Below, in pieces: positions 1 to 27,559 of a DNA stretch of 64,000 bases. Under the pieces are notes generated by a model. That model saw nothing but the letters and a program-made list of their open reading frames with translations. It was not told the DNA's origin and ran no database searches. Source of the stretch: an uncultured Croceitalea sp. (GTDB lineage: Bacteria; Bacteroidota; Bacteroidia; Flavobacteriales; Flavobacteriaceae); the NCBI GenBank assembly GCA_937959125.1, contig CALGQU010000024.1, positions 16,796 through 80,795 of the forward strand, written 5' to 3'. The position numbers were made by a program, and so were the translations under genes. Every line of letters starts with the position of its first letter. Position 1 is the stretch's first letter.

Positions 1-516
1 TTAAAAAATGAAGACAAGGCCTTTCAATATTATGCATTGGAACAACTTGGTCAAAGAAAGACCTATACCCAACAATATACGGAACAGGTGCGTTCTGCGA
101 TAAAAAAGAATCCGGCTCTTATGGAAGTGGGGCTTCTCTATTTTCAAGAAGCCCCAAGAACAATTTTTGAGGAAAACATTGTACAGTTGTTGAACTTCTC
201 AGAAGCCAAAAATCGTGAGTTATGCCTACAGCGGGTTTTTCAATATAAGGAAGACCTGTCCGCTTCATTTCTTAAGCGATTGATCAAAGCACTGCGCAGC
301 AGTAGTTCATTTAAAGAAATACATATGCTCTTAACTATTCTAAGGGATAGAAAAGGGGCATCCCAAGAACTCACGAATGATCTTTTTCCCTTTTTGGAAA
401 ACGATAATTTCTTGATCGCACGAGGCATCTATTGGTTCTTGTCTGAACAGAAACTTACGCATAACCAAAAGGGGAAATTACATTCCTTCTATGTTGCCCA
501 TCAACATAAACTCTGA
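1..516 (+). CDS. hypothetical helical protein, 5' end outside window
   Basis: Frame 1 is open from base 1 (LKNEDKAFQYY...) through the ATG at 37 to TGA at 514-516, so the ORF probably begins upstream. It is Leu/Lys-rich and helical-looking, with no motif I recognise. Confidence 0.35.
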   Translation, partial: LKNEDKAFQYYALEQLGQRKTYTQQYTEQVRSAIKKNPALMEVGLLYFQEAPRTIFEENIVQLLNFSEAKNRELCLQRVFQYKEDLSASFLKRLIKALRSSSSFKEIHMLLTILRDRKGASQELTNDLFPFLENDNFLIARGIYWFLSEQKLTHNQKGKLHSFYVAHQHKL

Positions 517-532
517 TTTAAAATAATACCAT

Positions 533-1651
533 ATGCCAATACTTTCTAAATCTGCAATTGCACTAGGAAATGGAGAATTCCGTATAGATACCATAGCTCT
601 AGCCAAACCACAAAATGACGAAATCTTGGTACAGCTAAAAGCGGCTGGCCTATGCCATACGGACTATGATTCCCTTTCCTGGGGAAAGCCAATTGTTATG
701 GGACATGAAGGTGCTGGCATTGTTGTGGAGACAGGTAGGGACATCGTCAATTTTAAGTCTGGGGACCAAGTCATCCTAAATTGGGCAACACCTTGCATGC
801 GCTGTTTTCAATGCCAAGAAGGGAACCAGCATATTTGTGAAAACAATTCCCCCGTAGTAGCGGGTGGTAATGGACATACCCCCGGCCATGCCCATTTGGA
901 GGGCACCCAATGGAACGGGCAGCCTATTGAACGGTCTTTTAACATTGGAACGTTAAGTGAATATACCTTGGTCAAAGAATCTGCCCTGGTCAAAGTGGCC
1001 GAGGAAAACCTCAATTTTTCCGCTGCGGCCATTGTCAGTTGTGGTGTAATGACGGGGTATGGCTCCGTAGTCAATTCTGCACAACTCACTGCGGGTAGTT
1101 CCGCTGTGGTTTTAGGTTGTGGCGGCGTTGGTTTAAATGTAATCCAAGCGTGCAGGATATCCGGGGCATCCAAAATCATCGCAATCGATATCAATGAAAC
1201 TAAATTGAAATTGGCCAAACAATTTGGGGCCACCCATACCATTTTAGCCGATAGAAAAGATAAAGGACTTGCCGAAGCAGCCAAAAAGGTCCATAACCTA
1301 TGCTATGGCCGGGGTGCGGACTATGCGTTCGAATGTACCGCCATACCATCACTTGGTGCTGCTCCATTGGCCATGGTGCGCAATGCGGGGACCGCGGTGC
1401 AAGTAAGCGGTATTGAAGAAGAAATTACCATAGATATGCGCCTGTTTGAATGGGACAAACTGTATATTAACCCACTTTATGGAAAATGCAGGCCACAAGT
1501 AGATTTTCCAAAATTGATGCAATTGTACAAAAAAGGGGATTTGTTACTGGATGAAATGATTACCAAAACCTACCCCTTGGAGGATTTACAGGAAGCTTTT
1601 GACGATATGTTGGCCGGTAAAAATGCCAAAGGCGTTATTGTTTTTGATTGA
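533..1651 (+). CDS. Zn-dependent medium-chain alcohol dehydrogenase (class III / AdhC-like layout)
   Basis: 372 aa. Motifs: GLCHTD (catalytic Zn ligands), GHEGAGIVVETG, structural-Zn Cys cluster CMRCFQCQEGNQHIC, Rossmann GCGGVGLNVIQ. Confidence 0.85.
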   Translation: MPILSKSAIALGNGEFRIDTIALAKPQNDEILVQLKAAGLCHTDYDSLSWGKPIVMGHEGAGIVVETGRDIVNFKSGDQVILNWATPCMRCFQCQEGNQHICENNSPVVAGGNGHTPGHAHLEGTQWNGQPIERSFNIGTLSEYTLVKESALVKVAEENLNFSAAAIVSCGVMTGYGSVVNSAQLTAGSSAVVLGCGGVGLNVIQACRISGASKIIAIDINETKLKLAKQFGATHTILADRKDKGLAEAAKKVHNLCYGRGADYAFECTAIPSLGAAPLAMVRNAGTAVQVSGIEEEITIDMRLFEWDKLYINPLYGKCRPQVDFPKLMQLYKKGDLLLDEMITKTYPLEDLQEAFDDMLAGKNAKGVIVFD

Positions 1652-1656
1652 ATGAT

Positions 1657-2460
1657 ATGAGCAGTTTTAGAACTATAGAACTTTCCGATGGCCCTTACGA
1701 ACAGGACGGACTTCGGTTTTTAACAGTAAAGACCGATACCCTAAAAGGCAGGGGCGATATCTGTCTTTATGTTCCGGAAGTAGCAACTACCGTAACCAAT
1801 TTGCCTATTTATATTTTGTTGCATGGCGTATACGGTAGCGCATGGATTTGGGCGTTAAAAGGGGGTGCCCACCACACGGCAAAACGTTTGATGGAGGCCG
1901 GGGAAATTGCACCGGCTATCATCGCCATGCCCTCCGATGGCCTTTGGGGCGACGGATCCGGGTATTTGGCACACCAAGAGAAAGACTTTGCCCATTGGAT
2001 CGTTTCCGATGTTCCAAAAGCGGTCATGGAGAACATCCCCCAAGCTGGACCACAATCCAAAATATGCCTTGGTGGATTATCCATGGGTGGCTATGGCGCC
2101 CTGCATTTAGGGAGTTCCCATCCAGATACATTTCAAGCCATTTCCGCGCATAGTGCCATTACCACATTTGACGGGATGGCCAATTTTGTAGAAGAACCTT
2201 TGACGTCCTATCCGCTGAAATACCAAAAAACAGATGTTATTGACAAACTAAGGTCCGCTAAAGAAAAATTACCCCCTTTTCGATTCGATTGTGGAACCGA
2301 AGATGATTTACTGTTTGATAACCGGAGCCTGCACCGGCAGTTGAAAGAACTTGAAATTCCGCACAGTTACCAAGAATTTAAAGGCGGGCATGAATGGCCC
2401 TATTGGCAGAAAAACGTAGCACATAGCTTACGCTTTTTTGACCAACACTGTTCCCGCTAA
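1657..2460 (+). CDS. alpha/beta-hydrolase 'putative esterase' (esterase D / S-formylglutathione hydrolase-like)
   Basis: Nucleophile elbow GLSMGGYGA and C-terminal GGHEW. The ORF-track start at 1648 is TTG; the first ATG is 1657, 5 nt after the ADH stop. Confidence 0.7.
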   Translation: MSSFRTIELSDGPYEQDGLRFLTVKTDTLKGRGDICLYVPEVATTVTNLPIYILLHGVYGSAWIWALKGGAHHTAKRLMEAGEIAPAIIAMPSDGLWGDGSGYLAHQEKDFAHWIVSDVPKAVMENIPQAGPQSKICLGGLSMGGYGALHLGSSHPDTFQAISAHSAITTFDGMANFVEEPLTSYPLKYQKTDVIDKLRSAKEKLPPFRFDCGTEDDLLFDNRSLHRQLKELEIPHSYQEFKGGHEWPYWQKNVAHSLRFFDQHCSR

Positions 2461-3329
2461 AAACCAAACTGTTCCTTTCTAAAACTTCCCGGCGTTTTTC
2501 CTGTTAATTTTTTAAAGGTTCTGGAGAAATAGGAAAAATTGTCCATCCCCACTTTATGGGCTATTTGCTCCAAGGAATCGTTGGTGGTCAACAACAAAAG
2601 TTGTGCCCGTTGAATACGTTTGGATTGGATGTACTTATTTGGCCCCATCCCCATTTGCTTTTTAAAAACCCGCGAAAAATGGTCCGTACTTACATGGCTC
2701 CGCGACGCCAATTCTTTTACGGTTAAGCCAGCGTGCAGGTTTTCTGCAATAAAAAGGAGTATGGCATTTAAATTACCGTGTTTATCCAAATTTGTTTTCT
2801 TCGGACTCGTATTGGTTACAAACTTGGACAGCAGCAAACTCAATATCCCTTGGGTTTCCAAAAAACGGTTTGTTTTGGTACGCGCGCTCCGCTCGTTGAA
2901 TTCCAATAAAACCACAGGGTCATGTACATAAGCCTTAGGGTCGCTATTTTGAATGGACCGCTTAGGATATAATTCCGCCAAGCGTTTGAACAAATGAGCA
3001 TCATGCTCCGTAACCGGCACCTCGTAGATAAACTCCCTTAGGTTATAAATAGAAAGCCCTGTTTTTATTTCATCAAAAAAACTGATGTAATACTGCTCAT
3101 GAAAAACATCGCATTTATAACGGTTATAGACATAACTAGGCACCAAGTACATATGACCCTTTTGCAAATCGAATTCCTGTTGGGAATGGTACATTTTAGC
3201 GTGGCCCTCCGTAACATAAAACAAACGCGTAAACGGACTGATGACATTGTCGTAGTTCCAACGATGGTCCAGCTGCGCAAAGCCCGCATGCAATAAATTG
3301 AGTTTTAGGGATTGTAGTAATTCTAACAT
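2457..3329 (-). CDS. AraC/XylS-family transcriptional regulator
   Basis: 290 aa. C-terminal double HTH (LEQIAHKVGMDNFSYFSRTFKKLTGKTPGSFR) and an N-terminal cupin-like half. Divergent from the 3494 operon; its 3' end overlaps the esterase stop by 4 nt. Confidence 0.85.
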   Translation of the reverse strand: MLELLQSLKLNLLHAGFAQLDHRWNYDNVISPFTRLFYVTEGHAKMYHSQQEFDLQKGHMYLVPSYVYNRYKCDVFHEQYYISFFDEIKTGLSIYNLREFIYEVPVTEHDAHLFKRLAELYPKRSIQNSDPKAYVHDPVVLLEFNERSARTKTNRFLETQGILSLLLSKFVTNTSPKKTNLDKHGNLNAILLFIAENLHAGLTVKELASRSHVSTDHFSRVFKKQMGMGPNKYIQSKRIQRAQLLLLTTNDSLEQIAHKVGMDNFSYFSRTFKKLTGKTPGSFRKEQFGF

Positions 3330-3493
3330 CGGTGTACTTGCCTTAATCTGGAAATATAAGTTTTGCCTTCACACATTTCAACCACTTCCATTACCTATCA
3401 TTTACATTAAAATTACTATAAATATCGGATTTGTACATAATTCTATCTTTTTTATACAAGGTTTAAAGCATATAGCCATCTTATTTTTAGCAA

Positions 3494-6400
3494 TTGAAAA
3501 ACAATGTCGCTTTGAAAGCTGGATATACATATGCATTACTAGGTTTTTTACTGCTTTTGGTGTCTTCTTGCGGAGGACCAAGCTTACCGGATACCATTGC
3601 TCTGGAATATGATAAATTACCCAAAAAGGTAGATTTCAATCAGCATATCAAACCCATTTTATCGGACAAGTGCTATTTGTGCCACGGGCCGGACAAGGGT
3701 AAAATTGAAGCGGGACTGCAATTGCATCTCCCAGATTTGGCCTATGCGGAATTGCCAGAATCGCCCGGGAAATATGCCATTGTCCCGGGGAATCTCAAAA
3801 AGAGTGAAACCTTTCACAGAATCCTATCCGAAGACCCCAATATAGTAATGCCGGAGCCCAGCTCACACCTTTCGTTGACGGACAAGGAAAAAGCGTTGCT
3901 TATCAAATGGATTGAGGACGGTGCGGAATATGAGGACCATTGGGCCTTTATTCCACCAAAAGAACCCAAAGTCCCCAAGTTGGATAGGGAGGATTTGGCG
4001 GTCAATGAAATTGATGCTTTTGTGCTCGCCCGCTTGCAAGAAGTAAATTTGGAACCCAACACCAGAGCAGACAAAGAAACGTTATTACGCCGTGTTTCTT
4101 TTGATTTAACGGGGCTTCCTCCAAGTCTGGAGGACATTGAAAATTTTGTCAAGGATACATCGCACAATGCCTATGAAAAACAGGTAGACCGTCTTTTGGC
4201 CTCCCCACATTACGGGGAGCAGATGGCCCTGGATTGGATGGATCTATCGCGTTATGCAGATACCCACGGTTATACGGTGGATCGTTATCGAGACGTATCG
4301 GCTTGGCGGGATTGGGTCATTGCTTCCTTCAATACAAATCGACCTTATAACGAGTTCATCGAATGGCAATTGGCAGGGGATCTAATGCCCCTTGCCACCA
4401 AAGAACAAATTTTGGCTACTACCTTTAACAGACTCCATCCCCAAAATTTGGAAGGCGGAATCGTCGACGAGGAGTTTCGATCAGAATATGTGGCAGATCG
4501 TACCAATGTTATGGGGGAAGGCCTGCTTGGTCTTACGGTGGCTTGTGCCAAATGCCATGATCATAAGTACGACCCCATCTCGCAAAAGAACTATTACGAG
4601 CTGTACAGTTTCTTTAACAATATCAATGAATCCGGTCAGATTCCATGGGATTTTTCCATGCCCGTACCCAATATGCAGTTACCTACCAAAGCGCAAGAAT
4701 CCTTTTTAGCCTATGTGGACGACCTGGTGAACCAAAAGCAATCCGAAGTTATCTCCACCAAAAAATCAGAACAAAGCCTTGCGGAAAATTGGATAGCATC
4801 CGGAGCGTATCAAAAAGAGCATACCCCAGAGTATCCAGAAAAAATGCTGGTCAACATCAATTTTGATAAGCAACTCAACAACCAACTCAACCCAAAAAGC
4901 AAAGGCAAAATGCGTACCCAGTTTACTGCCAATGAAAAGGCGGTTTTCGCCAAAGGATTTTCTGGAAACGGTTTGCAATTTGATGGGGATATTTGGATGG
5001 ATACCGAAAAAGAAGGCATTTTCAGTCGTTACCAACCTTTTAGCATCGGCATAAAAATCTACGTTCCCAAAGATTTGGAAGAAGGGGTCATTTTCCATAA
5101 AATGTTGGGCACACGCCTACACAGTTATCGCGGGTACCACCTCAACATTAAAGAAAATAAATTGGAATTGTTAATGGCCCATGTATGGCCGGACAATACC
5201 ATTGTAGAAGAAACTTTTGAAGAAATCCCCAAAGAAAAATGGGTGCAATTGACCATGACCTATGATGGCTCCAGCAAAGCAAGCGGACTCAAAATCTTTA
5301 TGGATGGCAGGGAACTGAAAACCAAAGTGGTTATTGATAATCTGTACAAGGATATCATCTTCAACGATTACGAAGATGTTATTTATGCCGGGCCGCAAGA
5401 ACCCGGTCTCCAAGTAGGCGGTCGCTGGCGCGGAAAAGGCATTGCTGGTGCCATAGTGGATGATCTCTTGGTTTTTGAAAAAGAGCTTGCCCCACTTGAA
5501 ATCCTACAACTGGCAAAACCGGAATCCTTTAAGGCGCTTCTGGCAAAACCCTATGGGAACCTCAGCGAAACCGAAAAAACGGCTTTGGCCGAGTATTACC
5601 TAAACACAAAATCCAAAACCTATAAGGCCAGCATGGCTGCTTTGGAAACGCAACGAAAAATGCAAAATGACAGTGCAGAAGCGGTGAAAGAAATTATGGT
5701 GATGAAGGAGATGGATACCCCACGGGAAACCTTTGTGTTGGAACGGGGGCAATACGATGTCTATGGGGAACAAGTATTTCCCAGCAGCCCGGAAGCCATA
5801 TTTGCATATCCGGATAGTTTACCCAAAAACCGCTTGGGCCTTGCCAAATGGGTAACCCACAAGAATAATCCCCTAACGGCGCGCGTGGCAGTAAACCGGT
5901 ACTGGAAAAATATGTTCGGCACGGGTTTGGTGAAAACCGTGGAGGACTTTGGCAATCAGGGGGAACTGCCCAGTCACCCAAAACTTTTGGACTGGCTTGC
6001 GGTTACCTTTGTTAAATCAGGTTGGGACGTAAAGGCACTCCATAAATTGATGGTGATGTCCGCCACCTATCGCCAATCTTCAAAAGTATCCCCAGAACAT
6101 ATGGAATTGGATGCGGAAAACCGATTGTTGGCCCGTGGTCCCTCACGCAGACTTTCCGGCGAAATGCTCCGCAACAATGCTTTGGCCGCTTCTGGCTTGC
6201 TCAATAAAAAAATAGGGGGAGAAAGTGTACGCCCCTACCAACCAGAGGGACTCTGGAAAATCAACAATACCAATTACACGCCGGATACCGGGGATAAACT
6301 GTACCGAAAAAGCATGTATACCATTTGGAAACGCTCCGTACCACATCCTACCATTGCCACTTTTGATGCCCCGGATCGCTCCATTTGTACGGTGCGAAGG

Positions 6401-6754
6401 CAAAAAACCAACACCCCTCTACAAGCCTTGGTCCTTTTGAACGACCCCACTTACATAGAGGCGGCACGTTTGCTTGGTAAGGCGATGATGGATTACGAAG
6501 ATGTTGCTTCCGGAATTTCGGCAACCTTTAAAAAATTGACGGGTCGCAGCATAAGGCCAGAAGAATTGGAATTGCTAACGGATCTACAACAGGGCGAATA
6601 CGAAAACTTTACTGCCTTTCCATCCAAAACGGAAGGCTGGCTCAATACTGGGGAGTTTCAACTGGAGGGTTCTTTTAATAAAAGCTTGGTGGCGGCAAAT
6701 GCGGTGGTTGCCAGTACCATCATGAATTTGGACGCCACCATTACCAAAAGATAA
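3494..6754 (+). CDS. PSCyt1 / DUF1549(PSCyt2) / LamG / DUF1553(PSD1) domain lipoprotein
   Basis: 1086 aa. Lipoprotein-type signal LLLLVSSC; CYLCH heme-c motif at 3671-3685; DUF1549-type block ending CAKCHDHKYDP (about 4544-4574). A central concanavalin/LamG-like insert is followed by a C-terminal NRYWKNMFGTGLV...HPKLLDWLA block typical of DUF1553. Only TTG starts are available (3494 or 3512). Confidence 0.8.
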   Translation: MKNNVALKAGYTYALLGFLLLLVSSCGGPSLPDTIALEYDKLPKKVDFNQHIKPILSDKCYLCHGPDKGKIEAGLQLHLPDLAYAELPESPGKYAIVPGNLKKSETFHRILSEDPNIVMPEPSSHLSLTDKEKALLIKWIEDGAEYEDHWAFIPPKEPKVPKLDREDLAVNEIDAFVLARLQEVNLEPNTRADKETLLRRVSFDLTGLPPSLEDIENFVKDTSHNAYEKQVDRLLASPHYGEQMALDWMDLSRYADTHGYTVDRYRDVSAWRDWVIASFNTNRPYNEFIEWQLAGDLMPLATKEQILATTFNRLHPQNLEGGIVDEEFRSEYVADRTNVMGEGLLGLTVACAKCHDHKYDPISQKNYYELYSFFNNINESGQIPWDFSMPVPNMQLPTKAQESFLAYVDDLVNQKQSEVISTKKSEQSLAENWIASGAYQKEHTPEYPEKMLVNINFDKQLNNQLNPKSKGKMRTQFTANEKAVFAKGFSGNGLQFDGDIWMDTEKEGIFSRYQPFSIGIKIYVPKDLEEGVIFHKMLGTRLHSYRGYHLNIKENKLELLMAHVWPDNTIVEETFEEIPKEKWVQLTMTYDGSSKASGLKIFMDGRELKTKVVIDNLYKDIIFNDYEDVIYAGPQEPGLQVGGRWRGKGIAGAIVDDLLVFEKELAPLEILQLAKPESFKALLAKPYGNLSETEKTALAEYYLNTKSKTYKASMAALETQRKMQNDSAEAVKEIMVMKEMDTPRETFVLERGQYDVYGEQVFPSSPEAIFAYPDSLPKNRLGLAKWVTHKNNPLTARVAVNRYWKNMFGTGLVKTVEDFGNQGELPSHPKLLDWLAVTFVKSGWDVKALHKLMVMSATYRQSSKVSPEHMELDAENRLLARGPSRRLSGEMLRNNALAASGLLNKKIGGESVRPYQPEGLWKINNTNYTPDTGDKLYRKSMYTIWKRSVPHPTIATFDAPDRSICTVRRQKTNTPLQALVLLNDPTYIEAARLLGKAMMDYEDVASGISATFKKLTGRSIRPEELELLTDLQQGEYENFTAFPSKTEGWLNTGEFQLEGSFNKSLVAANAVVASTIMNLDATITKR

Positions 6755-6758
6755 ACCT

Positions 6759-8270
6759 ATGTGCAACGGACACGATACCTTAAAATCGAACAACAAGGAC
6801 CTGCAAGAAGTTGAAAAGCAGTGGGACAGAAGAAATTTTTTGACCAAGACCTCCTTAGGTTTAGGTGCTTTGGCGTTTGGTTCTTTATTGAACTCTGAAA
6901 AAGCTTGGAGTAATCTAGGGAATCCTGATGCTGAGTCTACCGCTGCAAACTCCTTCATCAAAAATCGTTTGGGCCTACCCCACCACTTGCCCAAGGCGAA
7001 GCGTATCGTATACCTCTTTCAAAGTGGTGGGCCATCGCAATTGGACCTTTGGGACTACAAGCCTAAAATCAAGGATATGTTTGGCCAAGATCTACCGGAA
7101 TCCGTACGGCAGGGCCAACGATTGACGGCAATGAGTGCATTGCAGGAAAACTTTCCCATTGCACCCTCCATCATGGATTTTAAGCAATACGGGGAATCCC
7201 GGGCATGGGTAAGCGAGTTGATGCCCTACACTTCTGAGATTGTGGACGATCTCTGTTTTATCAAATCCATGCAAACGGACCAAATCAACCATGATCCAGC
7301 CATTACCTTTATGCAAACAGGAAACCAATTGCCAGGGAGACCCTCCATGGGCGCTTGGCTGAGTTATGGTTTGGGTTCAGACAATGAAAACCTGCCTACC
7401 TTTATTACGCTCATCACCAAAAATATGACAGGGCAGCCGCTCTACTCCAGACTTTGGGGGAATGGTTTTCTGCCCACGGAACACCAAGGAGTACAATTCA
7501 GGTCTGGCAAAGACCCGGTTCTTTATTTGAGCGATCCAGAAAATTATGACGGTAACGACCGCCGGAAAATGCTGGATTATTTAGGAAAGCTGAACGATGT
7601 ACAACATGACACCTATGGCGATCCGGAGATACAAGCAAGAATGGCACAGTATGAAATGGCCTTCCGTATGCAAACCTCCGTACCGGAAGTCACGGATATG
7701 TCCGACGAGCCCGATTATATTTTTGACCTCTATGGAGAAGACAGTCGGGACCCAGGCACCTATGCCGCCAACTGCTTAATGGCTAGAAAACTACTGGAAA
7801 AAGATGTAAAATTCGTGCAATTGTACCACCAAGGCTGGGACCAACATATTGGCTGTCCAGAAGGGATACGGGCACAATGCAAACGTACGGACCAAGCCAA
7901 CGCCGCATTGATAAAAGACTTGAAACAAAGGGGCATGCTGGAAGACACCTTGGTCGTTTGGGGCGGGGAATTTGGGCGTACCGTATATTCCCAAGGACAA
8001 TTAACGCAAAGTGATTATGGTAGGGACCACCATCCAAAAGCCTTTACCATGTGGATGGCCGGTGCCGGTGTAAAACCCGGTTTTACTTATGGTGAGACCG
8101 ATGATTTTAGCTACAATGTGGTCAAAGACCCGGTGCATGTGCATGATTTTCATGCCACCTTAATGCATCTTTTTGGCATTGACCATGAACGACTCACCTT
8201 TAAACATCAAGGAAGGCGTTTTCGATTGACCGATGTACACGGCCATGTCGTCAACGATTTACTCTCCTAA
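6759..8270 (+). CDS. DUF1501 family protein (alkaline-phosphatase/sulfatase-like fold), Tat-exported
   Basis: 503 aa. Twin-arginine leader DRRNFLTKTSLGLGALAFG and the C-terminal WGGEFGRT...GRDHH motif characteristic of DUF1501. Starts 4 nt after the previous stop. Confidence 0.8.
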   Translation: MCNGHDTLKSNNKDLQEVEKQWDRRNFLTKTSLGLGALAFGSLLNSEKAWSNLGNPDAESTAANSFIKNRLGLPHHLPKAKRIVYLFQSGGPSQLDLWDYKPKIKDMFGQDLPESVRQGQRLTAMSALQENFPIAPSIMDFKQYGESRAWVSELMPYTSEIVDDLCFIKSMQTDQINHDPAITFMQTGNQLPGRPSMGAWLSYGLGSDNENLPTFITLITKNMTGQPLYSRLWGNGFLPTEHQGVQFRSGKDPVLYLSDPENYDGNDRRKMLDYLGKLNDVQHDTYGDPEIQARMAQYEMAFRMQTSVPEVTDMSDEPDYIFDLYGEDSRDPGTYAANCLMARKLLEKDVKFVQLYHQGWDQHIGCPEGIRAQCKRTDQANAALIKDLKQRGMLEDTLVVWGGEFGRTVYSQGQLTQSDYGRDHHPKAFTMWMAGAGVKPGFTYGETDDFSYNVVKDPVHVHDFHATLMHLFGIDHERLTFKHQGRRFRLTDVHGHVVNDLLS

Positions 8271-8279
8271 CCCAGTATC

Positions 8280-9383
8280 ATGAACAAGAGAAGAAATTTT
8301 TTAAAGAAAAGTTTGGCCGCTTCCGCAGTCCTATCCGCCACTCCTAGTTTTGGGTTTCATATGGTGAAAAATCCAAAACCAGAAAAAGAAATTGTGGGCC
8401 ATGGTGATTACCAATACCAAATCTATCGCAATTGGGCCAAATTAGGCACGACCAAACCGCTGCTAAACTGCCATGAAATGGTTATGGACAGCAAGGGCAG
8501 GTTGATTATGATCGGGGACCATCCCGCCAATAATGTGCTTATTTTTGACAAATCGGGCAAGTTGCTCGACTATTGGGGCACTTCCTATCCCGGCGGGCAT
8601 GGGCTAAGCCTTTCCCAAGAAGGGGAAGATGATTTTTTATTCCTAACGGATTCTGGCTGGTACCTTAACAAAAAAGGGGAATGGACACCACATAATGGCC
8701 GGGTAAGCAAAACAACTACGGATGGGAAGGTGATTTTTGATATTGGCCATCCATTGACCATTGGCATTTACAAAGAAGGAGACCCTTTTAGACCAACGGA
8801 AACCGCCATTGGTCCTAACGGTGATATCTATGTAGCAGATGGCTATGGTATGGATTATATCATCCAATATTCGCCCAACGGGGAATACATAAGACATTGG
8901 GGCGGCCATGATAATACGGACGAAAACTACAACCTGTCCAATGCCCATGGCGTTGCCATTGACTATAGGGACAAAGACAATCCTTTGGTGGTCTGTACTT
9001 CTAGAAATGAGGAAAGCTTTAAATTTTTTACGTTGGACGGGAAATATGTCCGTACGCTCCATCTGCCTAATATGCAGGTATGCAGACCCGTTTTTGATGA
9101 TGCCAATTTATACGCCGGTGTTTGCTGGTCGCAACCCAAAATTGGGGAGACCACTTGGCAAGACCACACGGGATTCGTAACAATTTTAGAAGGGGACAAG
9201 GTAGTTTCCAACCCTGGCGGAACAGCCCCGAAGTATGAAAATGGGACACTTCAAAAATCTTATCAATTACAACATAAACCCATATTACATGGGCATGATG
9301 TCTGTGTAGACGAGGATAAGAATTTATACATCTGCCAATGGAACGCCAATAGAACACCCCCGTTAAAATTAGAACGTATCTAA
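8280..9383 (+). CDS. Tat-exported six-bladed beta-propeller (NHL-repeat-like) protein
   Basis: 367 aa. Leader KRRNFLKKSLAASAVLSA. Repeated blade motifs GRLIMIGDH, GDIYVADGYGMDYIIQYSPNG, HGVAIDYRD, NLYICQWN resemble NHL / peptidyl-hydroxyglycine-lyase-type propellers. Confidence 0.55.
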   Translation: MNKRRNFLKKSLAASAVLSATPSFGFHMVKNPKPEKEIVGHGDYQYQIYRNWAKLGTTKPLLNCHEMVMDSKGRLIMIGDHPANNVLIFDKSGKLLDYWGTSYPGGHGLSLSQEGEDDFLFLTDSGWYLNKKGEWTPHNGRVSKTTTDGKVIFDIGHPLTIGIYKEGDPFRPTETAIGPNGDIYVADGYGMDYIIQYSPNGEYIRHWGGHDNTDENYNLSNAHGVAIDYRDKDNPLVVCTSRNEESFKFFTLDGKYVRTLHLPNMQVCRPVFDDANLYAGVCWSQPKIGETTWQDHTGFVTILEGDKVVSNPGGTAPKYENGTLQKSYQLQHKPILHGHDVCVDEDKNLYICQWNANRTPPLKLERI

Positions 9384-9392
9384 AATAACAGT

Positions 9393-10787
9393 ATGCAAGA
9401 AACCTCTGATTTTGTATTGTTTTTAGGGCGTTTTCATCCTCTTGTGGTGCATTTGCCCATTGGTTTTCTTTTGTTCGCCTTTTTGTTGGAAATCCTTGCC
9501 CGGTTCCAAAAAAACAAGGCCTTGACCGTGGTTGTTCCCCTAGCGTTATTGAGCGGTGCCATCAGTGCTTTGGTTGCCTGTATTTTAGGGTACCTACTTT
9601 CCCAAAGTGGTGAGTATGAAAAAAGCATGTTGGATCGGCATTTTTGGGTAGGTATAGGGACTACCGTAGTCGCTTTTTTGGCTTGGGCCATCCGCACGGA
9701 TAAAATCAAAATTTCAGCACTTCAAAAATTGAAACCCAATATGGCCTTATTGACCTTGTTGGTTATTTTGATAGGAATCACAGGACATTATGGGGGCAAT
9801 CTGACCCATGGATCTGAGTATCTGATAAAATATGCCCCTTTCAATGCTAAGGCAGAAAAAGAATTACCACCACTTGCCAGCTTGGAAGAAGCACAAATCT
9901 ATTCGTATTTGGTAGAACCTATTTTGGAACAAAAATGTATGGGTTGCCACAATAGCTCTAAACAAAAAGGAGGCTTGGCCATGCATACACCAAACCTATT
10001 GGTCAAAGGGGGCAAGGGAGGGGCCATTTTCAATGCAGGGAACAGTGCCGCATCAGAATTGATAAAGAGGGTAACCCTAGCGGAAGACCATGAAGATTTT
10101 ATGCCGCCTGAAGGCAAGACCCCTTTAACGGAAGAAGAAATTTCCCTACTCACCTATTGGATAGACCAAGCCAATGCCGATTTTGGGATTACTATCGCCA
10201 GCGTTGAAACATCCGAAGAAATTAAACAACTAGCAGCCAATAGCTTGGGATTGGATTTTGAAGGGGAAAAAAATATGGTCAGTACCAAATTACCGGAAGT
10301 ACCGCCTGTAGACCCAGAACTGTTGGATGAACTATCGGCCTCTGGTTTCAAAATTAGGGAACTGGTTATTGGCGCTTCCCTCTTTGATGTATCGCTTCCG
10401 CCAAACACCATTCCAAGCAATCAAAATGCCCAACCAAGTTTGGAGCTGTTGTTAAAAATAAGGGCAAATATCATTAGGTTGGATGTAAGTGAAAACCATA
10501 TTTCCAATGAAGATTTGGCGATTGTAGGCCAGTTTTTAAACCTCAGACAATTACAGTTGGAGAAAAATCCCATAGACGACGAGGGAATACCAAAGTTAAT
10601 GGTTTTGAAGCAGTTGGAAAGCATCAACCTCTATGGAACCAAGATTGGTAAAGCGTCATTACCGCTTTTCTCACAGTTGTCTAGTCTAAAAACGGTCTAT
10701 GCTTGGCAAACCAATCTGGAAAAGGACGATATTACGTTTGGGAACAAGAACTTAACACATCCAAAAATTATCTTGGGAGCCCTTTAA
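9393..10787 (+). CDS. membrane protein: DUF2231-like 4-TM domain + c-type cytochrome (PSCyt1-type) domain + leucine-rich repeats
   Basis: 464 aa. N-terminal TM helices with conserved His (HPLVVHLPIG ... GHYGGNLTHG), CMGCH at 9936-9950, and C-terminal LRRs (LRQLQLEKNPI, LKQLESINLYGTKI, LSSLKTVYAW). Confidence 0.65.
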   Translation: MQETSDFVLFLGRFHPLVVHLPIGFLLFAFLLEILARFQKNKALTVVVPLALLSGAISALVACILGYLLSQSGEYEKSMLDRHFWVGIGTTVVAFLAWAIRTDKIKISALQKLKPNMALLTLLVILIGITGHYGGNLTHGSEYLIKYAPFNAKAEKELPPLASLEEAQIYSYLVEPILEQKCMGCHNSSKQKGGLAMHTPNLLVKGGKGGAIFNAGNSAASELIKRVTLAEDHEDFMPPEGKTPLTEEEISLLTYWIDQANADFGITIASVETSEEIKQLAANSLGLDFEGEKNMVSTKLPEVPPVDPELLDELSASGFKIRELVIGASLFDVSLPPNTIPSNQNAQPSLELLLKIRANIIRLDVSENHISNEDLAIVGQFLNLRQLQLEKNPIDDEGIPKLMVLKQLESINLYGTKIGKASLPLFSQLSSLKTVYAWQTNLEKDDITFGNKNLTHPKIILGAL

Positions 10788-10872: not shown

Positions 10873-13209
10873 ATGCTTTTTATCAATCAAAACTTCCAAC
10901 GACCCTTGGCATTAGTTGTAGCAATTCTCGCTTTTGCCTGCACCGAGACCAAAAAAGAAACTGCTGGTTCCGATCCATTTTGGGACGACCGAAAACAAAT
11001 AAGCCTTCTGGATTTTGAAGAAGAATCCTTGTCTGCTGAGATAACTTCCAACGATGCGGATATCAGCTTGGTCAACTCCAATGCCACAAGTGGCGGCAAG
11101 GCCTTAAAAGTGGTGTATCATGGGGACTCCAAAGACCCCGGTGTTTCTTATGTTCCAGAAACACCTATCGATGCTTCCAGCTTCGATAATTTTGCCTTGG
11201 TGTTTGATGTTACGGGACTGACCGATGTATATTCCGCACAGCTTTTTGTGACTGTTGTCAATGACAAAGGCCATGCCGTACGTAGGTTTTCCGTTGTTGG
11301 CGCTGGGGAAACAGAAACTTTTTACGGGGAACTTTCCGGGGAATATATTGCAGAAGAAACCGGCCTCCGGGACGACCCCACCCCATTTAAAAACGAATCC
11401 TCACAATTAAAAATAAGTGGTTTAAAAAAGGATGTTGATTTTTCCACTATTGCGGAAATCCATTTTAAACTCGCCCATCCTATTGTAACAAAAACTTTGG
11501 TTTTCGATAATATTCGATTGGTGGAAACCCCTCCTGTTCCTGATGATTATTTAATAGGGATTATCGATAAATACGGCCAAAACGCCAAAGATGATTTTAA
11601 TGGTAAGATTACTTCTGATGCGGAGTTGAAAAAATTGGCCGATGCCGAATTAAAAACACTTTCAGAAGAAGGTACCATGGCAGAAAGAAGCAAATTTGGC
11701 GGCTGGTCCAAAGGCCCCAAACTAGAGGCCACAGGATATTTTAGAACGGAAAAAGTAGACGGTAAATGGGCCTTGGTAGATCCGGAAGGATATTTGTTCT
11801 TCTCCACAGGTCTGGCCAACGTACGTATGGCCAATACCACTTCTTTTACGGGTCGCGATTTTAAAAACGATACGGTTCGTTATAGAGATCCAGAAGATGT
11901 TACCCCAGAAGATTCTAGGGGAATGGTAAAACTAAGCAAAGAAGTGACCTCCACTTCCTATGATGCCTATCCTTGGCGGAGTAAAATGTTTTTGGATCTA
12001 CCTTCTTATGATGACCCTTTGGCCAACAATTATAGCTATCGTAGGGAACAACACATAGGGCCGTTTGCCCACGGGGAGACCTTTAGCCATTATCAGGCCA
12101 ATTTAGAAAGACGGTACGGGGAACCTACAGAAGGGGCACATTTGGAAAAATGGGTAGATGTCACTTTGGACCGTTTCCTAAATTGGGGCTTTACCTCCTT
12201 TGGAAATTGGGCAGGTTATGAGTTCTATCATGAAAATAGGATGCCCTATTTTGCCAACGGATGGGTTATCGGTGATTTTAAGACGGTAAGTTCAGGAGCA
12301 GATTATTGGGGACCTATGCCGGATGTTTTTGACCCAGAATTTGAACGACGCGCCAAAGTGACGGTAAAAGTGGTTGCAGAAGAAGTACGCAATAACCCAT
12401 GGTGTATTGGTGTCTTTATTGACAACGAAAAAAGCTGGGGTCTGCCCGGTAGCATCAATACGCAATACGCCATCATTTTGGATGCCCTTTCCAAGGATGC
12501 GAAAGAGAGTCCGGTCAAAGCAAAATTTGTAGAAATGCTTCTAGAAAAACATGGAACCATTGCTAAATTAAATACGGCTTGGGGTACGGATTTGGCCAAT
12601 TGGAAAGTGTTGAATACCGGAGTGGACCATAAGAAAAAAGAAAGCTTTACGGATGCCCAGGTAGAAGATTTATCCATCATGTTGGAGGCTTATGCCACCA
12701 AATATTTCCAAGTGGTACACGATGCCTTGGAGAACGTGATGCCCAACCACCTCTACTTAGGATGTCGTTTTGCCTCTTGGGGAATGAGTAAAGAAACAAG
12801 GGCCGCGGCCAAAAAATATGTGGACGTATTCAGCTATAACTTTTATGAGGAAGCTATTGGCACATCGTATTGGAAGTTCTTGGAAGAAATTGACAGACCC
12901 AGTTTAATTGGGGAATTTCATATGGGGACCACCAATTCCGGGGTATTTCATCCGGGAATCGTAATGGCCAAAGACCAAGAGGATCGAGCTAGGATGTATG
13001 TAAAGTATATGGAAACGGTCATTGACAACCCTTATTTTGTAGGTGCGCATTGGTTCCAGTATTTGGATTCCCCTACCTCTGGACGGGCCCATGATGGGGA
13101 AAACTACAATGTTGGTTTTGTGCGTATTACGGATGTTCCTTACGCCCCAATGGTGCGCGAAGCCAAGAAATTAAACAGCAGTCTGTACTCCAGACGTTTT
13201 GGAAACTAA
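10873..13209 (+). CDS. GH50-like clan GH-A glycoside hydrolase (putative exo-beta-agarase type), lipoprotein, paralogue 1
   Basis: 778 aa. Signal LAFAC, then an N-terminal beta-sandwich/CBM-like region of about 215 aa. The TIM-barrel signatures are FIDNEKSWG (Asn-Glu acid/base, E519) and IGEFHMG (nucleophile, E681). The GH50 assignment rests on my memory of 'agarase'-annotated homologues plus context. Confidence 0.6.
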   Translation: MLFINQNFQRPLALVVAILAFACTETKKETAGSDPFWDDRKQISLLDFEEESLSAEITSNDADISLVNSNATSGGKALKVVYHGDSKDPGVSYVPETPIDASSFDNFALVFDVTGLTDVYSAQLFVTVVNDKGHAVRRFSVVGAGETETFYGELSGEYIAEETGLRDDPTPFKNESSQLKISGLKKDVDFSTIAEIHFKLAHPIVTKTLVFDNIRLVETPPVPDDYLIGIIDKYGQNAKDDFNGKITSDAELKKLADAELKTLSEEGTMAERSKFGGWSKGPKLEATGYFRTEKVDGKWALVDPEGYLFFSTGLANVRMANTTSFTGRDFKNDTVRYRDPEDVTPEDSRGMVKLSKEVTSTSYDAYPWRSKMFLDLPSYDDPLANNYSYRREQHIGPFAHGETFSHYQANLERRYGEPTEGAHLEKWVDVTLDRFLNWGFTSFGNWAGYEFYHENRMPYFANGWVIGDFKTVSSGADYWGPMPDVFDPEFERRAKVTVKVVAEEVRNNPWCIGVFIDNEKSWGLPGSINTQYAIILDALSKDAKESPVKAKFVEMLLEKHGTIAKLNTAWGTDLANWKVLNTGVDHKKKESFTDAQVEDLSIMLEAYATKYFQVVHDALENVMPNHLYLGCRFASWGMSKETRAAAKKYVDVFSYNFYEEAIGTSYWKFLEEIDRPSLIGEFHMGTTNSGVFHPGIVMAKDQEDRARMYVKYMETVIDNPYFVGAHWFQYLDSPTSGRAHDGENYNVGFVRITDVPYAPMVREAKKLNSSLYSRRFGN

Positions 13210-13212
13210 CAG

Positions 13213-22110: not shown

Positions 22111-22246
22111 ATGTATTTTTGCTGATAACCGAACGGTTTGTGTCTTTTGATGAAATTATTGAAAACCGCCGTACCTGCGGATTATCTTACTGTACAATAA
22201 CTGAACGCTACGCTAACAGAATGGCACCATAGCTTTTAAATAGTAC

Positions 22247-27389: not shown

Positions 27390-27559
27390 AGCTTCTATCA
27401 ATTTTTTAGGAATTCATAAAATCTGTCTAAAGGTCTACTTTAGTTGTAAGACCAGACCCACATTATTTGCGGAATTATAAAGATGTTTAGTTTTTGTGCA
27501 GTTGGTTTTTGGAGCCGTCACAACTTCTAGGGGTATCTTTAAACCAGTAACTGCCCCAC

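What the first reader, a model, noticed from the sequence alone, without database searches (positions are those of the whole stretch)
3494..10787. Exported four-gene PSCyt/DUF1549/LamG/DUF1553 - DUF1501 - NHL propeller - membrane heme-c/LRR operon of unknown function, wired into an algal-galactan island
Seen in sequence: four same-strand ORFs are separated by 4, 9 and 9 nt. All are extracytoplasmic: a Cys-lipoprotein signal on ORF1, twin-arginine leaders on ORF2 and ORF3, and a 4-TM anchor on ORF4. There are three CxxCH motifs (3671-3685, about 4544-4558, 9936-9950). A divergent AraC regulator lies upstream and two GH50-like genes lie directly downstream. Established knowledge: PSCyt1/PSCyt2/PSD1 proteins and their DUF1501 partners are massively expanded in Planctomycetes, and as far as I know have no experimentally defined function. 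DUF1501 has the alkaline-phosphatase/sulfatase-type fold. Inference: this is a periplasmic binding (LamG) + hydrolase/redox machine. Its placement in an island that lacks any recognisable formylglycine sulfatase suggests it processes decorated galactan or couples periplasmic sugar oxidation to the respiratory chain.
Basis: partly seen in the sequence, partly recalled or inferred. Interest (0 to 1): 0.75.

Follow-up and report, generated by a model that had tools for sequence, protein, structure and literature searches.

The report
Conserved periplasmic haem-c glycan-processing gene module
Four tightly packed genes for exported haem and metal proteins form a cassette that recurs beside sugar-degrading genes in hundreds of bacterial species; its chemistry is unknown, but it is not a sulfatase substitute and one member resembles the zinc lyase of the animal peptide-amidating enzyme.

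Summary
Four same-strand ORFs (3494-10787) lie 4, 9 and 9 nt apart. Three CxxCH motifs sit at the stated coordinates. There is a lipobox, two Tat leaders, a divergent AraC gene and two GH50 agarase genes downstream.

The module is a self-contained cassette: regulator plus PSCyt/DUF1549/DUF1553 lipoprotein, DUF1501 and an NHL propeller, with or without DUF2231-cyt c-LRR. The propeller has relatives in at least 591 matched stretches of a one-genome-per-species collection. In the 80 best loci ORF1 and ORF2 lie directly upstream of ORF3 in 62 of 70. These loci include freshwater and soil Chitinophagaceae and Rhodopirellula.

GH50 adjacency occurs only here and in a 95% relative. Elsewhere the neighbours are true sulfatases (25 of 80 loci, 14 directly downstream), GH29, fucose catabolism genes, a Tat Gfo/Idh/MocA dehydrogenase and the P450 6-O-methyl-galactose cluster.

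ORF2 lacks the formylglycine motif, and Glu-Phe replaces its Asp-His/Asn metal motif. ORF3 is most like the zinc lyase PAL, with conserved His65, His107, His223, His339 and Tyr189.

Best guess (about 0.3): oxidation in the periplasm of a decorated sugar, coupled to a haem-c relay, followed by a lyase step. It is a new variant of the uncharacterised PSCyt-DUF1501 module.

The parts
2457..3329 (-). AraC-family regulator, divergent from ORF1 with a 164-nt shared intergenic region
   Evidence: HTH_AraC and HTH_18 hits. A homolog lies divergently upstream of the module in 35 of 70 loci. A TPR-LuxR regulator takes this place in 16 loci, and a PAS-AraC regulator does so in Rhodopirellula.
3494..6754 (+). 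ORF1: lipoprotein with a PSCyt1 mono-haem c domain (C60xxCH; M119 is the likely distal ligand), PSCyt2/DUF1549 with a second invariant CxxCH (C351-H355, followed by DHKYDP), a weak ConA/LamG-like region (about 515-670) and PSD1/DUF1553
   Evidence: PSCyt1 weakly resembles the C-terminal haem domain of the hydrazine synthase alpha subunit (E=0.028). DUF1549 and DUF1553 have no relative in the PDB.
6759..8270 (+). ORF2: Tat-exported DUF1501 protein, a divergent member of the alkaline-phosphatase/sulfatase fold that lacks the canonical nucleophile and Asp-His metal motif and has many invariant His, Asp and Glu residues
8280..9383 (+). ORF3: Tat-exported six-bladed NHL propeller, PAL-like. Conserved residues are H65, H107, H223, H339-D340, Y189 and R230
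9393..10787 (+). ORF4: 4-TM DUF2231 anchor (N-out, C-out; conserved H15, H20, H83, H132 and H139 at the periplasmic helix ends), a PSCyt1 mono-haem c domain (C182xxCH; M237) and a C-terminal LRR domain
   Evidence: Present after ORF3 in 50 of 73 loci.
533..2460 (+). ZoADH/FoADH-type Zn alcohol dehydrogenase (533-1651) and esterase (1648-2460). Recurrent neighbours of the module; membership of the system is uncertain
   Evidence: PDB 8h2b and 8h2a at 691 and 651 bits. The pair lies within 10 kb of the module in 9 of 80 loci and in L081 and L083. Background in PMC10033563.
10873..15549 (+). Two GH50 exo-beta-agarase genes following ORF4 (85-nt gap, no terminator-like site in the gap). This is a lineage-specific neighbour, not part of the conserved module
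   Evidence: Absent from L001-L080.

Best explanation
What is shown. This is a conserved, regulator-equipped periplasmic module attached to glycan-utilisation loci.

What is inferred. The module carries out an oxidation-then-lyase step on a decorated sugar or oligosaccharide. The decoration could be sulfate, a methyl ether or another ether or ester; the sugar is probably of the fucose or galactose type.

Proposed roles:
- ORF1 is a Sec-exported lipoprotein that can receive haem at its two CxxCH sites. Its beta-sandwich region may bind the glycan. It partners ORF2.
- ORF2 is a Tat-exported metalloprotein on a remodelled sulfatase-type fold.
- ORF1 and ORF2 together oxidise a carbon next to the decorated oxygen. 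In about 10 of 70 loci a Tat-exported Gfo/Idh/MocA dehydrogenase may help.
- Electrons leave through the ORF1 haem c to the haem c of membrane-anchored ORF4, which docks through its LRR domain. From there they reach the respiratory chain by way of a cluster of histidines on the periplasmic side of ORF4's DUF2231 anchor. Where ORF4 is absent, a soluble cytochrome would take its place.
- ORF3, a PAL-like zinc lyase, then collapses the labile oxidised intermediate (hemiacetal, hemiketal or beta-substituted carbonyl type). This releases the decoration or an aldehyde or keto-acid fragment.

The identity of the redox-active site, the substrate and the direction of electron flow are all inferred, not shown.
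For: 1. Tight, conserved linkage. ORF2 lies upstream of ORF3 in 68 of 74 loci, and ORF1 plus ORF2 in 62 of 70. Two Rhodopirellula loci have the order ORF3-ORF1-ORF2. Median gaps are 9.5 to 19 nt. The orthologs are very similar across four Bacteroidota classes and in Rhodopirellula: 59-81% identity for ORF3 and 61-88% for ORF2.
2. Three invariant CxxCH motifs, all on Sec-exported proteins. The two Tat-exported proteins have none.
3. ORF3 is PAL-like. PAL (3fvz) is the top Foldseek hit (E=1e-12). The deep family profile matches PAL as one colinear stretch (E=6.6e-22; profile positions 79-242 align to PAM residues 561-727), whereas the TRIM NHL domains match only blade by blade. H223 and H339 are invariant, and H65, H107, Y189 and R230 nearly invariant, at 28-48% identity. 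PAL is a zinc-dependent six-bladed lyase with an active-site arginine (PMC6529398; PMC10303134).
4. ORF4 has five conserved histidines at the periplasmic ends of its four TM helices, plus a haem c domain and an LRR domain.
5. Neighbourhood. Sulfatases lie directly downstream in 14 loci. Other recurrent neighbours are a Tat-Gfo/Idh/MocA dehydrogenase (10 loci, in the same operon in L083), GH29 and fucose-catabolism-like genes, GH117-like genes, SusC/D, the P450 6-O-methyl-galactose cluster with ZoADH and esterase, and a GH63-like gene inserted in Terrimonas.
6. He et al. 2017 found PSCyt genes enriched in genomes from oxic water layers and located next to sulfatases (PMC5615132).
Against: - No component has a demonstrated redox-active catalytic site.
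- The alkaline-phosphatase fold has no known oxidoreductase member.
- ORF3 occurs without ORF1 and ORF2 in roughly 10% of loci. Its only domain fusion found is to a GDSL/SGNH hydrolase, not to a cytochrome.
- ORF4 is missing in 23 of 73 loci, including all Zobellia loci.
- No expression, haem-staining or knockout data exist.
- The equivalence of individual ORF3 residues to PAL residues rests on spacing and a colinear profile match. No structural superposition was possible.
- The DUF2231 fold matched nothing in the PDB.
Confidence: 0.3

Rival explanations
1. A bacterial analogue of the two-step PAM reaction. Electrons flow inward, from quinol through the ORF4 anchor and haem c to the ORF1 haem c. 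They feed an O2-activating metal centre in ORF1/ORF2, which hydroxylates the alpha-carbon of an ether, ester or amide substituent. The PAL-like ORF3 then cleaves the carbinol intermediate. The result is an oxidative dealkylation in the periplasm that parallels the cytoplasmic P450 demethylase.
For: - ORF3 is PAL-like. In animals PAL acts after a metallo-monooxygenase, and established knowledge is that this monooxygenase is supplied with electrons across a membrane by a multi-histidine cytochrome.
- ORF4 has a transmembrane histidine cluster plus a haem c.
- The module lies next to the P450/Fdx/FdR/ZoADH/esterase cluster in the window's relatives and across three Bacteroidota classes.
- PSCyt genes are enriched in genomes from oxic layers (PMC5615132).
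- A di-haem CCP/MauG gene directly follows ORF4 in 5 loci.
Against: - No copper or iron oxygenase signature was recognised in ORF1 or ORF2.
- Simple hemiacetals of methyl ethers break down on their own, so no lyase would be needed for them.
- ORF4 is optional.
- Adjacency to the P450 cluster is seen in only 6 to 10 of about 80 loci.
Confidence: 0.12
2. Periplasmic aldose oxidation followed by lactone hydrolysis. A dehydrogenase (ORF1/ORF2, or the Tat-Gfo/Idh/MocA enzyme) oxidises C1 of a free sugar such as L-fucose or L-galactose and passes electrons to cytochrome c. ORF3 acts as the metal-dependent lactonase. This is essentially the first reader's idea that sugar oxidation is coupled to respiration.
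For: - A Tat-exported Gfo/Idh/MocA enzyme recurs with the module.
- Six-bladed propellers with a central metal include lactonases (established knowledge).
- Non-phosphorylative fucose-pathway-like genes (Amidohydro_2 lactonase, SDR, MFS transporter, rhamnose mutarotase) lie nearby in about 10 loci.
Against: - ORF3 has no SGL (PF08450) or GSDH (PF07995) hit.
- SMP30-type lactonases are absent from the top 50 Foldseek hits, whereas PAL is first.
- The neighbouring catabolic clusters already encode their own cytoplasmic lactonase.
- Such a role would not explain the large multidomain ORF1 or ORF2.
Confidence: 0.12
3. ORF2 is a sulfatase or phosphatase-type hydrolase that removes sulfate (for example from L-galactose-6-sulfate) in an island without formylglycine sulfatases, and ORF1's LamG region is the binding module.
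For: - The window has no sulfatase gene.
- DUF1501 shares the sulfatase-type fold: Pfam Sulfatase E=0.016, and sub-threshold PDB matches to ENPP4 and arylsulfatases.
- Sulfatases are frequent neighbours elsewhere, which points to sulfated substrates.
Against: - No C/S-x-P-x-R motif.
- The canonical Asp-His/Asn metal pair is Glu404-Phe405.
- True sulfatases are co-operonic with the module in 14 loci, so the module accompanies sulfatases in those loci rather than replacing them.
- Three haem-binding motifs would have no role.
- The module also occurs in soil and freshwater bacteria.
Confidence: 0.06
4. The module does not process glycans. It is a general envelope redox, metal-handling or signalling unit that happens to be recruited into polysaccharide-utilisation loci. 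ORF4's LRR plus haem domain could act as a sensor, and ORF1/ORF2 could be a metal or peroxide-handling pair.
For: - The flanking genes are very diverse, and some ORF3 copies sit alone in unrelated contexts.
- LRR domains mediate protein-protein contacts.
- A CCP/MauG peroxidase gene lies next to the module in 5 loci.
Against: - The flanks are consistently enriched in glycoside hydrolases, sulfatases, SusC/D and sugar catabolism genes.
- The dedicated regulators are of the AraC or TPR-LuxR type that is typical of sugar regulons.
- A GH63-like gene is inserted inside the operon in Terrimonas.
Confidence: 0.1

Closest known systems
PSCyt1/PSCyt2/PSD1 + DUF1501 two-gene modules of Planctomycetes, Verrucomicrobia and Lentisphaerae (Kamneva et al. 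2012, PMC3542564; He et al. 2017, PMC5615132)
   Same: The ORF1 architecture is identical, including the optional Laminin_G_3 region. It is followed by a Tat-signal DUF1501 protein. These modules lie near sulfatases and carbohydrate-binding modules. Their function is unknown.
   Different: Here the pair belongs to one specific, single-copy orthogroup in Bacteroidota. That orthogroup is almost always joined to a PAL-like NHL propeller and often to a DUF2231-PSCyt1-LRR membrane protein, with a dedicated AraC or TPR-LuxR regulator. The four-gene cluster described in 2012 has different partners (a PPC protein, Big_2 and a PSCyt1/WD40 protein).
[quoted passage not shown]
   Same: Both are six-bladed NHL propellers. 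PAL is the best structural match. Conserved histidines in blades 2, 4 and 6, a DGY tyrosine and a nearby arginine have the spacing of the PAL zinc and catalytic residues. The profile match is colinear.
   Different: Identity is only 19% and the TM-score 0.61-0.68. ORF3 has an extra conserved His65 in blade 1. It is bacterial, Tat-exported and lies in a glycan locus, with no PHM-like copper monooxygenase partner. Its substrate is unknown.
Formylglycine-dependent sulfatases (family S1, PF00884) and the wider alkaline-phosphatase superfamily
   Same: ORF2 shares the fold class, shown by weak Pfam and PDB matches over the C-terminal half. It is periplasmic and lies next to sulfated-glycan genes.
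   Different: ORF2 has no C/S-x-P-x-R nucleophile motif. The Asp-His/Asn metal motif is replaced by Glu-Phe. It is exported by the Tat pathway and is always paired with a haem protein.
Periplasmic dehydrogenase-cytochrome c systems and oxidation-then-elimination bond cleavage (for example glucoside 3-dehydrogenase, p-cresol methylhydroxylase, and the Gfo/Idh/MocA-plus-lyase C-glycoside pathway). This comparison rests on established knowledge and was not tested here.
   Same: The proposed logic is the same: the substrate is oxidised in the periplasm with c-type haems as the electron outlet, and a metal-dependent lyase resolves the product. A Tat-exported Gfo/Idh/MocA enzyme is a recurrent neighbour.
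   Different: None of the catalytic folds match. There is no flavin, PQQ or molybdenum domain, and no TIM-barrel lyase.
P450/ferredoxin/ferredoxin-reductase 6-O-methyl-D-galactose demethylation cluster with ZoADH and an esterase (Brott et al. 2023, PMC10033563)
   Same: It is a physical neighbour of the module in the window's closest relative and in at least 6 other genomes. The ADH and esterase are present in the window.
   Different: It is a cytoplasmic, NADH-driven system with no homology to ORF1-4. The P450 trio is absent from this window.

Membership tests
PSCyt-DUF1501 module (Kamneva 2012) | A protein with PSCyt1 + PSCyt2 (DUF1549) + PSD1 (DUF1553) | tested here: met
   Pfam E-values are 1.6e-11, 1e-85 and 3e-103, all above the gathering cut-offs.
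PSCyt-DUF1501 module (Kamneva 2012) | An adjacent DUF1501 protein, often with a twin-arginine signal | tested here: met
   DUF1501 at 3e-158, 4 nt downstream of ORF1. The motif is DRRNFLTK, with R24 and R25 invariant.
PSCyt-DUF1501 module (Kamneva 2012) | An optional Laminin_G_3 or other carbohydrate-binding insert | tested here: inconclusive
   18.1 bits for the whole protein and 23.4 bits for the segment, against a cut-off of 27.6. Marked 'weak' in the Pseudozobellia ortholog.
Formylglycine sulfatase (S1, PF00884) | C/S-x-P-x-R formylglycine motif | tested here: not met
   No [CS]x[PA]xR occurs anywhere in ORF2.
Formylglycine sulfatase (S1, PF00884) | Conserved Asp-His/Asn metal ligands (S-D-H/N-G) and a Pfam score above the cut-off | tested here: not met
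   The motif aligns to G-G-E404-F405-G. PF00884 scores 15 bits against a cut-off of 25.
[quoted passage not shown] | Six-bladed NHL beta-propeller | tested here: met
   AF2 model with pLDDT 86.9. The top Foldseek hit is 3fvz, E=9.7e-13, TM-score 0.61/0.68.
[quoted passage not shown] | Three histidine zinc ligands, a catalytic tyrosine, a substrate-binding arginine and a calcium-binding aspartate | tested here: inconclusive
   H107, H223 and H339-D340, Y189 and R230 are conserved to 28% identity. The colinear profile match (profile 79-242 to PAM 561-727, E=6.6e-22) gives spacings that fit PAL His585, Tyr654, His690 and His786-Asp787. Those residue numbers come from memory (Chufan et al. 2009). 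No superposition or residue-level alignment could be printed.
[quoted passage not shown] | Cleaves peptidyl-alpha-hydroxyglycine to an amide plus glyoxylate | not testable with these tools
   Needs an enzyme assay, for example with alpha-hydroxyhippurate.
c-type cytochrome domain | CxxCH haem-attachment motif on a protein exported unfolded, plus a distal ligand | tested here: met
   Three motifs against 0.0065 expected, conserved in 63 of 64 and 50 of 50 orthologs. M119-P and M237-P-P are invariant. ORF1 has a lipoprotein signal and ORF4 has a C-out topology. Haem attachment itself was not tested.
Tat substrates | N-terminal S/T-R-R-x-F-L-K motif followed by a hydrophobic stretch | tested here: met
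   ORF2 has DRRNFLTKTSLGLGALAFG and ORF3 has KRRNFLKKSLAASAVL. NCBI names ORF3 homologs as Tat-signal proteins.
SMP30/gluconolactonase or PQQ sGDH/AA12 propellers | A PF08450 or PF07995 match, or a top structural match to these families | tested here: not met
   No such Pfam hit even at E<=5, and none among the top 50 Foldseek hits.
Agar/galactan utilisation locus component | Consistent co-occurrence with agarases or galactan enzymes across genomes | tested here: not met
   GH50 lies next to the module only in the window and in L081/L082. Flanking genes vary across the 80 loci.

The most novel reading that the evidence does not exclude
The cassette could be a previously unrecognised class of carbohydrate 'auxiliary activity'. 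In this reading a periplasmic oxidative machine fed by haem c (PSCyt/DUF1549/DUF1553 plus a remodelled sulfatase-fold metalloprotein) is coupled to a bacterial PAL-type zinc lyase. Together they remove ether, ester or sulfate decorations from algal and other glycans by hydroxylating or oxidising the alpha-carbon and then cleaving with the lyase. This would be a prokaryotic counterpart of the animal PHM-PAL amidation logic. It would also give the first function for the hugely expanded PSCyt-DUF1501 families.
Probability: 0.13. Interest if true: 0.9.

Novelty: new variant of a known kind. Interest (0 to 1): 0.6.

Why it matters
PSCyt/DUF1549/DUF1553-DUF1501 pairs are among the largest uncharacterised gene families in Planctomycetes and Verrucomicrobia. 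They have been flagged as an open problem since at least 2012 (PMC3542564, PMC5615132).

This orthogroup is an unusually tractable way in, for four reasons:
- It is usually a single locus per genome with its own AraC or TPR-LuxR regulator; only Reichenbachiella agariperforans contributed two of the 80 loci.
- It is very highly conserved.
- It occurs in Zobellia and Cellulophaga species. Gene deletion is established in Zobellia galactanivorans (PMC10033563), but whether that species carries the module was not checked.
- It is tied to a partner (ORF3) whose closest relative has known chemistry.

If it proves to be an oxidative step in removing glycan decorations, current schemes for marine polysaccharide degradation, built on glycoside hydrolases, sulfatases and P450, would be missing an enzyme class. 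It might also explain why the ZoADH-type dehydrogenase is needed for growth on methylated galactose.

Tried and rejected
1. Sequence search of the PDB with the four proteins. Nothing informative came back for ORF1 or ORF2. ORF3 gave only NHL and PAL hits, and ORF4 only LRR hits.
2. NCBIfam gave no family for any of the four proteins.
3. A Foldseek search with the whole ORF4 model was dominated by the LRR domain, so the DUF2231 fold stayed unmatched.
4. I tried to print a residue-level alignment of ORF3 to PAL. PAL ranked 8th and then 6th, below the five alignments shown.
5. My first guess was that ORF2's GRDHH corresponds to the sulfatase Asp-His motif and that His178 sits in the formylglycine position. 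I rejected the first point and left the second open, because the profile alignment places the motif at E404-F405.
6. Literature searches for DUF1501, DUF1549, DUF1553, PSCyt, DUF2231 and NHL plus sulfatase found no functional study. The PAL structure paper could not be retrieved.
7. I looked for Rosetta-stone fusions of ORF3 with cytochromes. Only a GDSL/SGNH fusion turned up.
8. The contexts of lone ORF3 copies were uninformative.
9. The promoter and terminator scan gave counts at background level. No terminator-like site lies in the ORF4-GH50 gap.
10. There are no Rfam or tRNA features in the window.
11. I asked whether window 1-516 is the ferredoxin reductase seen in relatives. It is not.
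12. Looking up the second ORF4 paralog of Pseudozobellia failed because the protein is not on record.

Full report
**1. The observation**

The window carries four ORFs on the + strand: 3494-6754, 6759-8270, 8280-9383 and 9393-10787. The gaps between them are 4, 9 and 9 nt.

Pfam results:
- ORF1 has PSCyt1, PSCyt2/DUF1549 and PSD1/DUF1553. Its Laminin_G_3 hit is below the cut-off (18-23 bits against 27.6).
- ORF2 is DUF1501 (3e-158).
- ORF3 has a weak NHL hit.
- ORF4 has DUF2231, PSCyt1 and LRR.

Shuffling the four proteins gives 0.0065 motifs by chance. The motifs are kept in 63 of 64 ORF1 orthologs and 50 of 50 ORF4 orthologs.

ORF1 has a lipobox (LVSS-C26). ORF2 and ORF3 have the twin-arginine motifs DRRNFLTK and KRRNFLKK, and these are conserved in orthologs.

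An AraC gene (2457-3329, - strand) diverges from ORF1 across 164 nt. Two GH50 genes follow ORF4 after 85 nt, and no terminator-like site lies in that gap. The first GH50 gene scores 784 bits against Aga50D.

The rest of the window is an agar and anhydrogalactose catabolic locus of a Bacteroidota. It holds SusC/D, GH16, a GH117-like gene, an aldehyde dehydrogenase, enolase-superfamily enzymes, KDG-type kinases and aldolases, a TRAP transporter and PorP. No sulfatase domain or signature occurs in any frame. Only 'LamG' is weaker than stated.

**2. What the unit is**

ORF3 has 4410 relatives at E<=1e-5 in the 90%-clustered protein collection. Identity stays at 63-81% across Flavobacteriia, Cytophagia and Saprospiria, and is 66% in Rhodopirellula.

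A scan of one genome per species found at least 591 matching stretches. I analysed the best 80 loci with 10-kb flanks. BLASTP of the window proteins against all ORFs of these loci gave the following:
- ORF2 lies directly upstream of ORF3 in 68 of 74 loci where this can be seen.
- ORF1 plus ORF2 lie upstream in 62 of 70 loci. Two Rhodopirellula loci have the order ORF3-ORF1-ORF2.
- ORF4 lies downstream in 50 of 73 loci. It is absent in all four Zobellia loci.
- A divergent AraC gene is present in 35 of 70 loci.
- Median intergenic gaps are 9.5 to 19 nt.

In 16 loci a TPR-LuxR regulator takes the AraC position. In Rhodopirellula a PAS-AraC regulator does so.

The conserved unit is therefore regulator + ORF1 + ORF2 + ORF3, with ORF4 optional. 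About 10% of ORF3 copies stand alone in unrelated contexts.

**3. The neighbours**

I clustered the flanking ORFs and annotated representatives. The main findings are:
- Formylglycine sulfatases occur in 25 of 80 loci. In 14 loci one lies directly downstream on the same strand. In Zobellia the arrangement is ORF1-ORF2-ORF3-sulfatase.
- A Tat-signal Gfo/Idh/MocA oxidoreductase occurs in 10 loci. It is in the same operon, just ahead of ORF1, in Pseudozobellia.
- Other neighbours are GH29 genes; a fucose-type non-phosphorylative catabolic set (Amidohydro_2, SDR, MFS transporter, rhamnose mutarotase); GH117-like, GH2 and GH3 genes; and SusC/D.
- A di-haem CCP/MauG gene follows ORF4 in 5 loci.
- The P450/ferredoxin/reductase cluster for 6-O-methyl-galactose, with its ZoADH-type dehydrogenase and esterase, is a recurrent neighbour.
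- In a Terrimonas MAG a GH63-like gene sits between ORF2 and ORF3. In Arcicella a DUF5703 protein follows ORF3.

GH50 follows the module only in this window and in a 95%-identical relative. That relative reads P450-Fer2-FdR-ADH-esterase-AraC-ORF1-4-GH50-GH50.

The module is thus linked to carbohydrates, often to sulfated or methylated fucose- and galactose-containing glycans. It is not specific to agar or to the sea.

**4. The individual proteins**

*ORF2.* It has no [CS]x[PA]xR motif. A profile of its orthologs gives only sub-threshold matches to PDB proteins (ENPP4, an arylsulfatase and a chondroitin endosulfatase). All of them align the superfamily's S-D-H/N-G metal motif to ORF2's G-G-E404-F405-G. 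PF00884 scores 15 bits against a cut-off of 25. The fold class is right, but the canonical catalytic apparatus is gone. Many other His, Asp and Glu residues are invariant, including H178, D423-H424-H425, H460 and H462-D463.

*ORF3.* The AF2 model has pLDDT 86.9 and is a six-bladed propeller. Its best PDB match is the zinc lyase PAL (3fvz; E=1e-12, TM-score 0.61/0.68, 19% identity), ahead of the non-enzymatic TRIM NHL domains and the Vgb lyase.

A search of 50%-identity representatives found 223 clusters at E<=1e-30. Aligning 33 full-length members at 28-48% identity leaves H223 and H339 invariant. H65, H107, Y189, D187 and R230 are nearly invariant.

That deep profile matches PAL as a single colinear stretch (profile 79-242 to PAM 561-727, E=6.6e-22). 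The TRIM proteins match only as repeats of one blade. The spacings are H107 to Y189 about 70 profile positions, and Y189 to H223 about 32. These fit PAL His585, Tyr654 and His690, and H339-D340 fits His786-Asp787. The PAL residue numbers come from memory. That PAL is a zinc-dependent six-bladed lyase with an active-site arginine is confirmed in PMC6529398 and PMC10303134.

The only domain fusion found joins an ORF3-like propeller to a GDSL/SGNH hydrolase.

*ORF4.* The model shows four long N-terminal helices, a cytochrome region and a confident LRR domain. The positive-inside rule and the need for the haem domain to be periplasmic give an N-out, C-out topology. That places all five conserved histidines (15, 20, 83, 132, 139) at the periplasmic ends of the helices (this is inference).

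*ORF1.* The PSCyt1 domain weakly resembles the haem domain of the hydrazine synthase alpha subunit.

**5. How it may work**

The haem motifs sit only on the Sec-exported proteins. The two Tat-exported proteins carry clusters of conserved histidines. This is the layout of a periplasmic electron relay serving metal enzymes.

My best-supported reading, at about 0.3, is oxidation followed by a lyase step on a decorated sugar:
- ORF1 and ORF2, helped in some genomes by the Tat-Gfo/Idh/MocA enzyme, oxidise the substrate.
- Electrons leave through haem c to ORF4 and the membrane.
- The PAL-like ORF3 collapses the labile product.

The redox site, the substrate and the direction of electron flow are all inferred.

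The rivals are:
- an inward-flowing, O2-activating variant modelled on the PAM reaction (0.12);
- aldose oxidation followed by lactone hydrolysis (0.12);
- a role unrelated to glycans (0.10);

The rest of the probability is 'something else'.

**6. Comparison with what is known, and novelty**

The PSCyt1/2/PSD1 (with or without LamG) plus DUF1501 pair was described in PVC bacteria in 2012 and again in 2017. Both papers stated that the function is unknown. No functional study is in the searchable library.

Four things appear to be undescribed there:
- this orthogroup's obligate link to a PAL-like propeller;
- the optional DUF2231-cyt c-LRR anchor;
- the dedicated regulators;
- the pattern of neighbouring genes.

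I rate it a new variant of a known but uncharacterised kind, with interest 0.6. Its main value is as a tractable way into a long-standing open question.

Noticed in passing
window 533-2460 (and 1-516): A ZoADH/FoADH-type Zn-ADH (691 bits to PDB 8h2b) and an esterase lie just beyond AraC. In the 95% relative and in Pseudozobellia this pair follows P450-Fer2-FdR, the 6-O-methyl-galactose demethylation cluster. Here window 1-516 is a different, unannotatable ORF, and no P450 is present in the 64 kb. The ADH-esterase pair also lies next to the module without a P450 in L009, L024 and L044. That hints the pair may be tied to the module rather than to the P450.
   Followed up: partly
L083 1643-2983; L021, L035, L078 about 3770-5140; L002, L006, L013, L055, L059, L061 about 2720-4110: A Tat-signal Gfo/Idh/MocA oxidoreductase is a recurrent fifth gene. 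It is either operonic just upstream of ORF1 or lies just beyond the divergent AraC gene. It is absent from this window.
   Followed up: partly
window 35478-37103; L017, L018, L020, L022, L025, L030, L032, L034, L037, L041, L046-L050 about 3100-5100 (- strand): A 541-aa TPR protein with a C-terminal LuxR-type helix-turn-helix has 30-40% identical homologs. In 16 loci these replace AraC as the divergent neighbour of ORF1.
   Followed up: partly
window 15546-17375; L010 and L011 about 3193-5034: A PhoD-like metallophosphatase-fold gene overlaps the second GH50 gene by 4 nt. It also recurs next to the module in two Aquimarina loci. Its role is unknown.
   Followed up: no
L003, L023, L026, L036, L038 about 12500-13760: A di-haem cytochrome c peroxidase/MauG-family gene directly follows ORF4 in five flavobacterial loci.
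   Followed up: no
P0379 (733 aa, from the representatives search): A natural fusion of an ORF3-like propeller (residues 17-349) with a GDSL/SGNH hydrolase domain (391-560). No cytochrome fusions were seen among the 150 best representatives.
   Followed up: partly
window 26151-27401 and 37834-39507: Two sizeable ORFs (416 and 557 aa) have no Pfam hit at E<=1e-4. The second lies just downstream of SusD and may be a surface glycan-binding protein.
   Followed up: no
L054 8073-9977; L070 11126-13423: In non-marine carriers the operon holds other glycan genes. A GH63/MGH1-like hydrolase is inserted between ORF2 and ORF3 in a Terrimonas MAG. A DUF5703 protein follows ORF3 in Arcicella aquatica.
   Followed up: partly
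L071 (1336-bp contig): An ORF3 homolog (61% identity) sits on a 1.3-kb contig binned as Candidatus Omnitrophota. This is probably a binning contaminant and not evidence for that phylum.
   Followed up: no
window 18985-23227: A 1041-aa FG-GAP/ASPIC-UnbV/Big_2 protein lies next to an SMP-30/gluconolactonase-like gene on the - strand, between the GH29 gene and the KDG-type catabolic genes. It was not examined.
   Followed up: no
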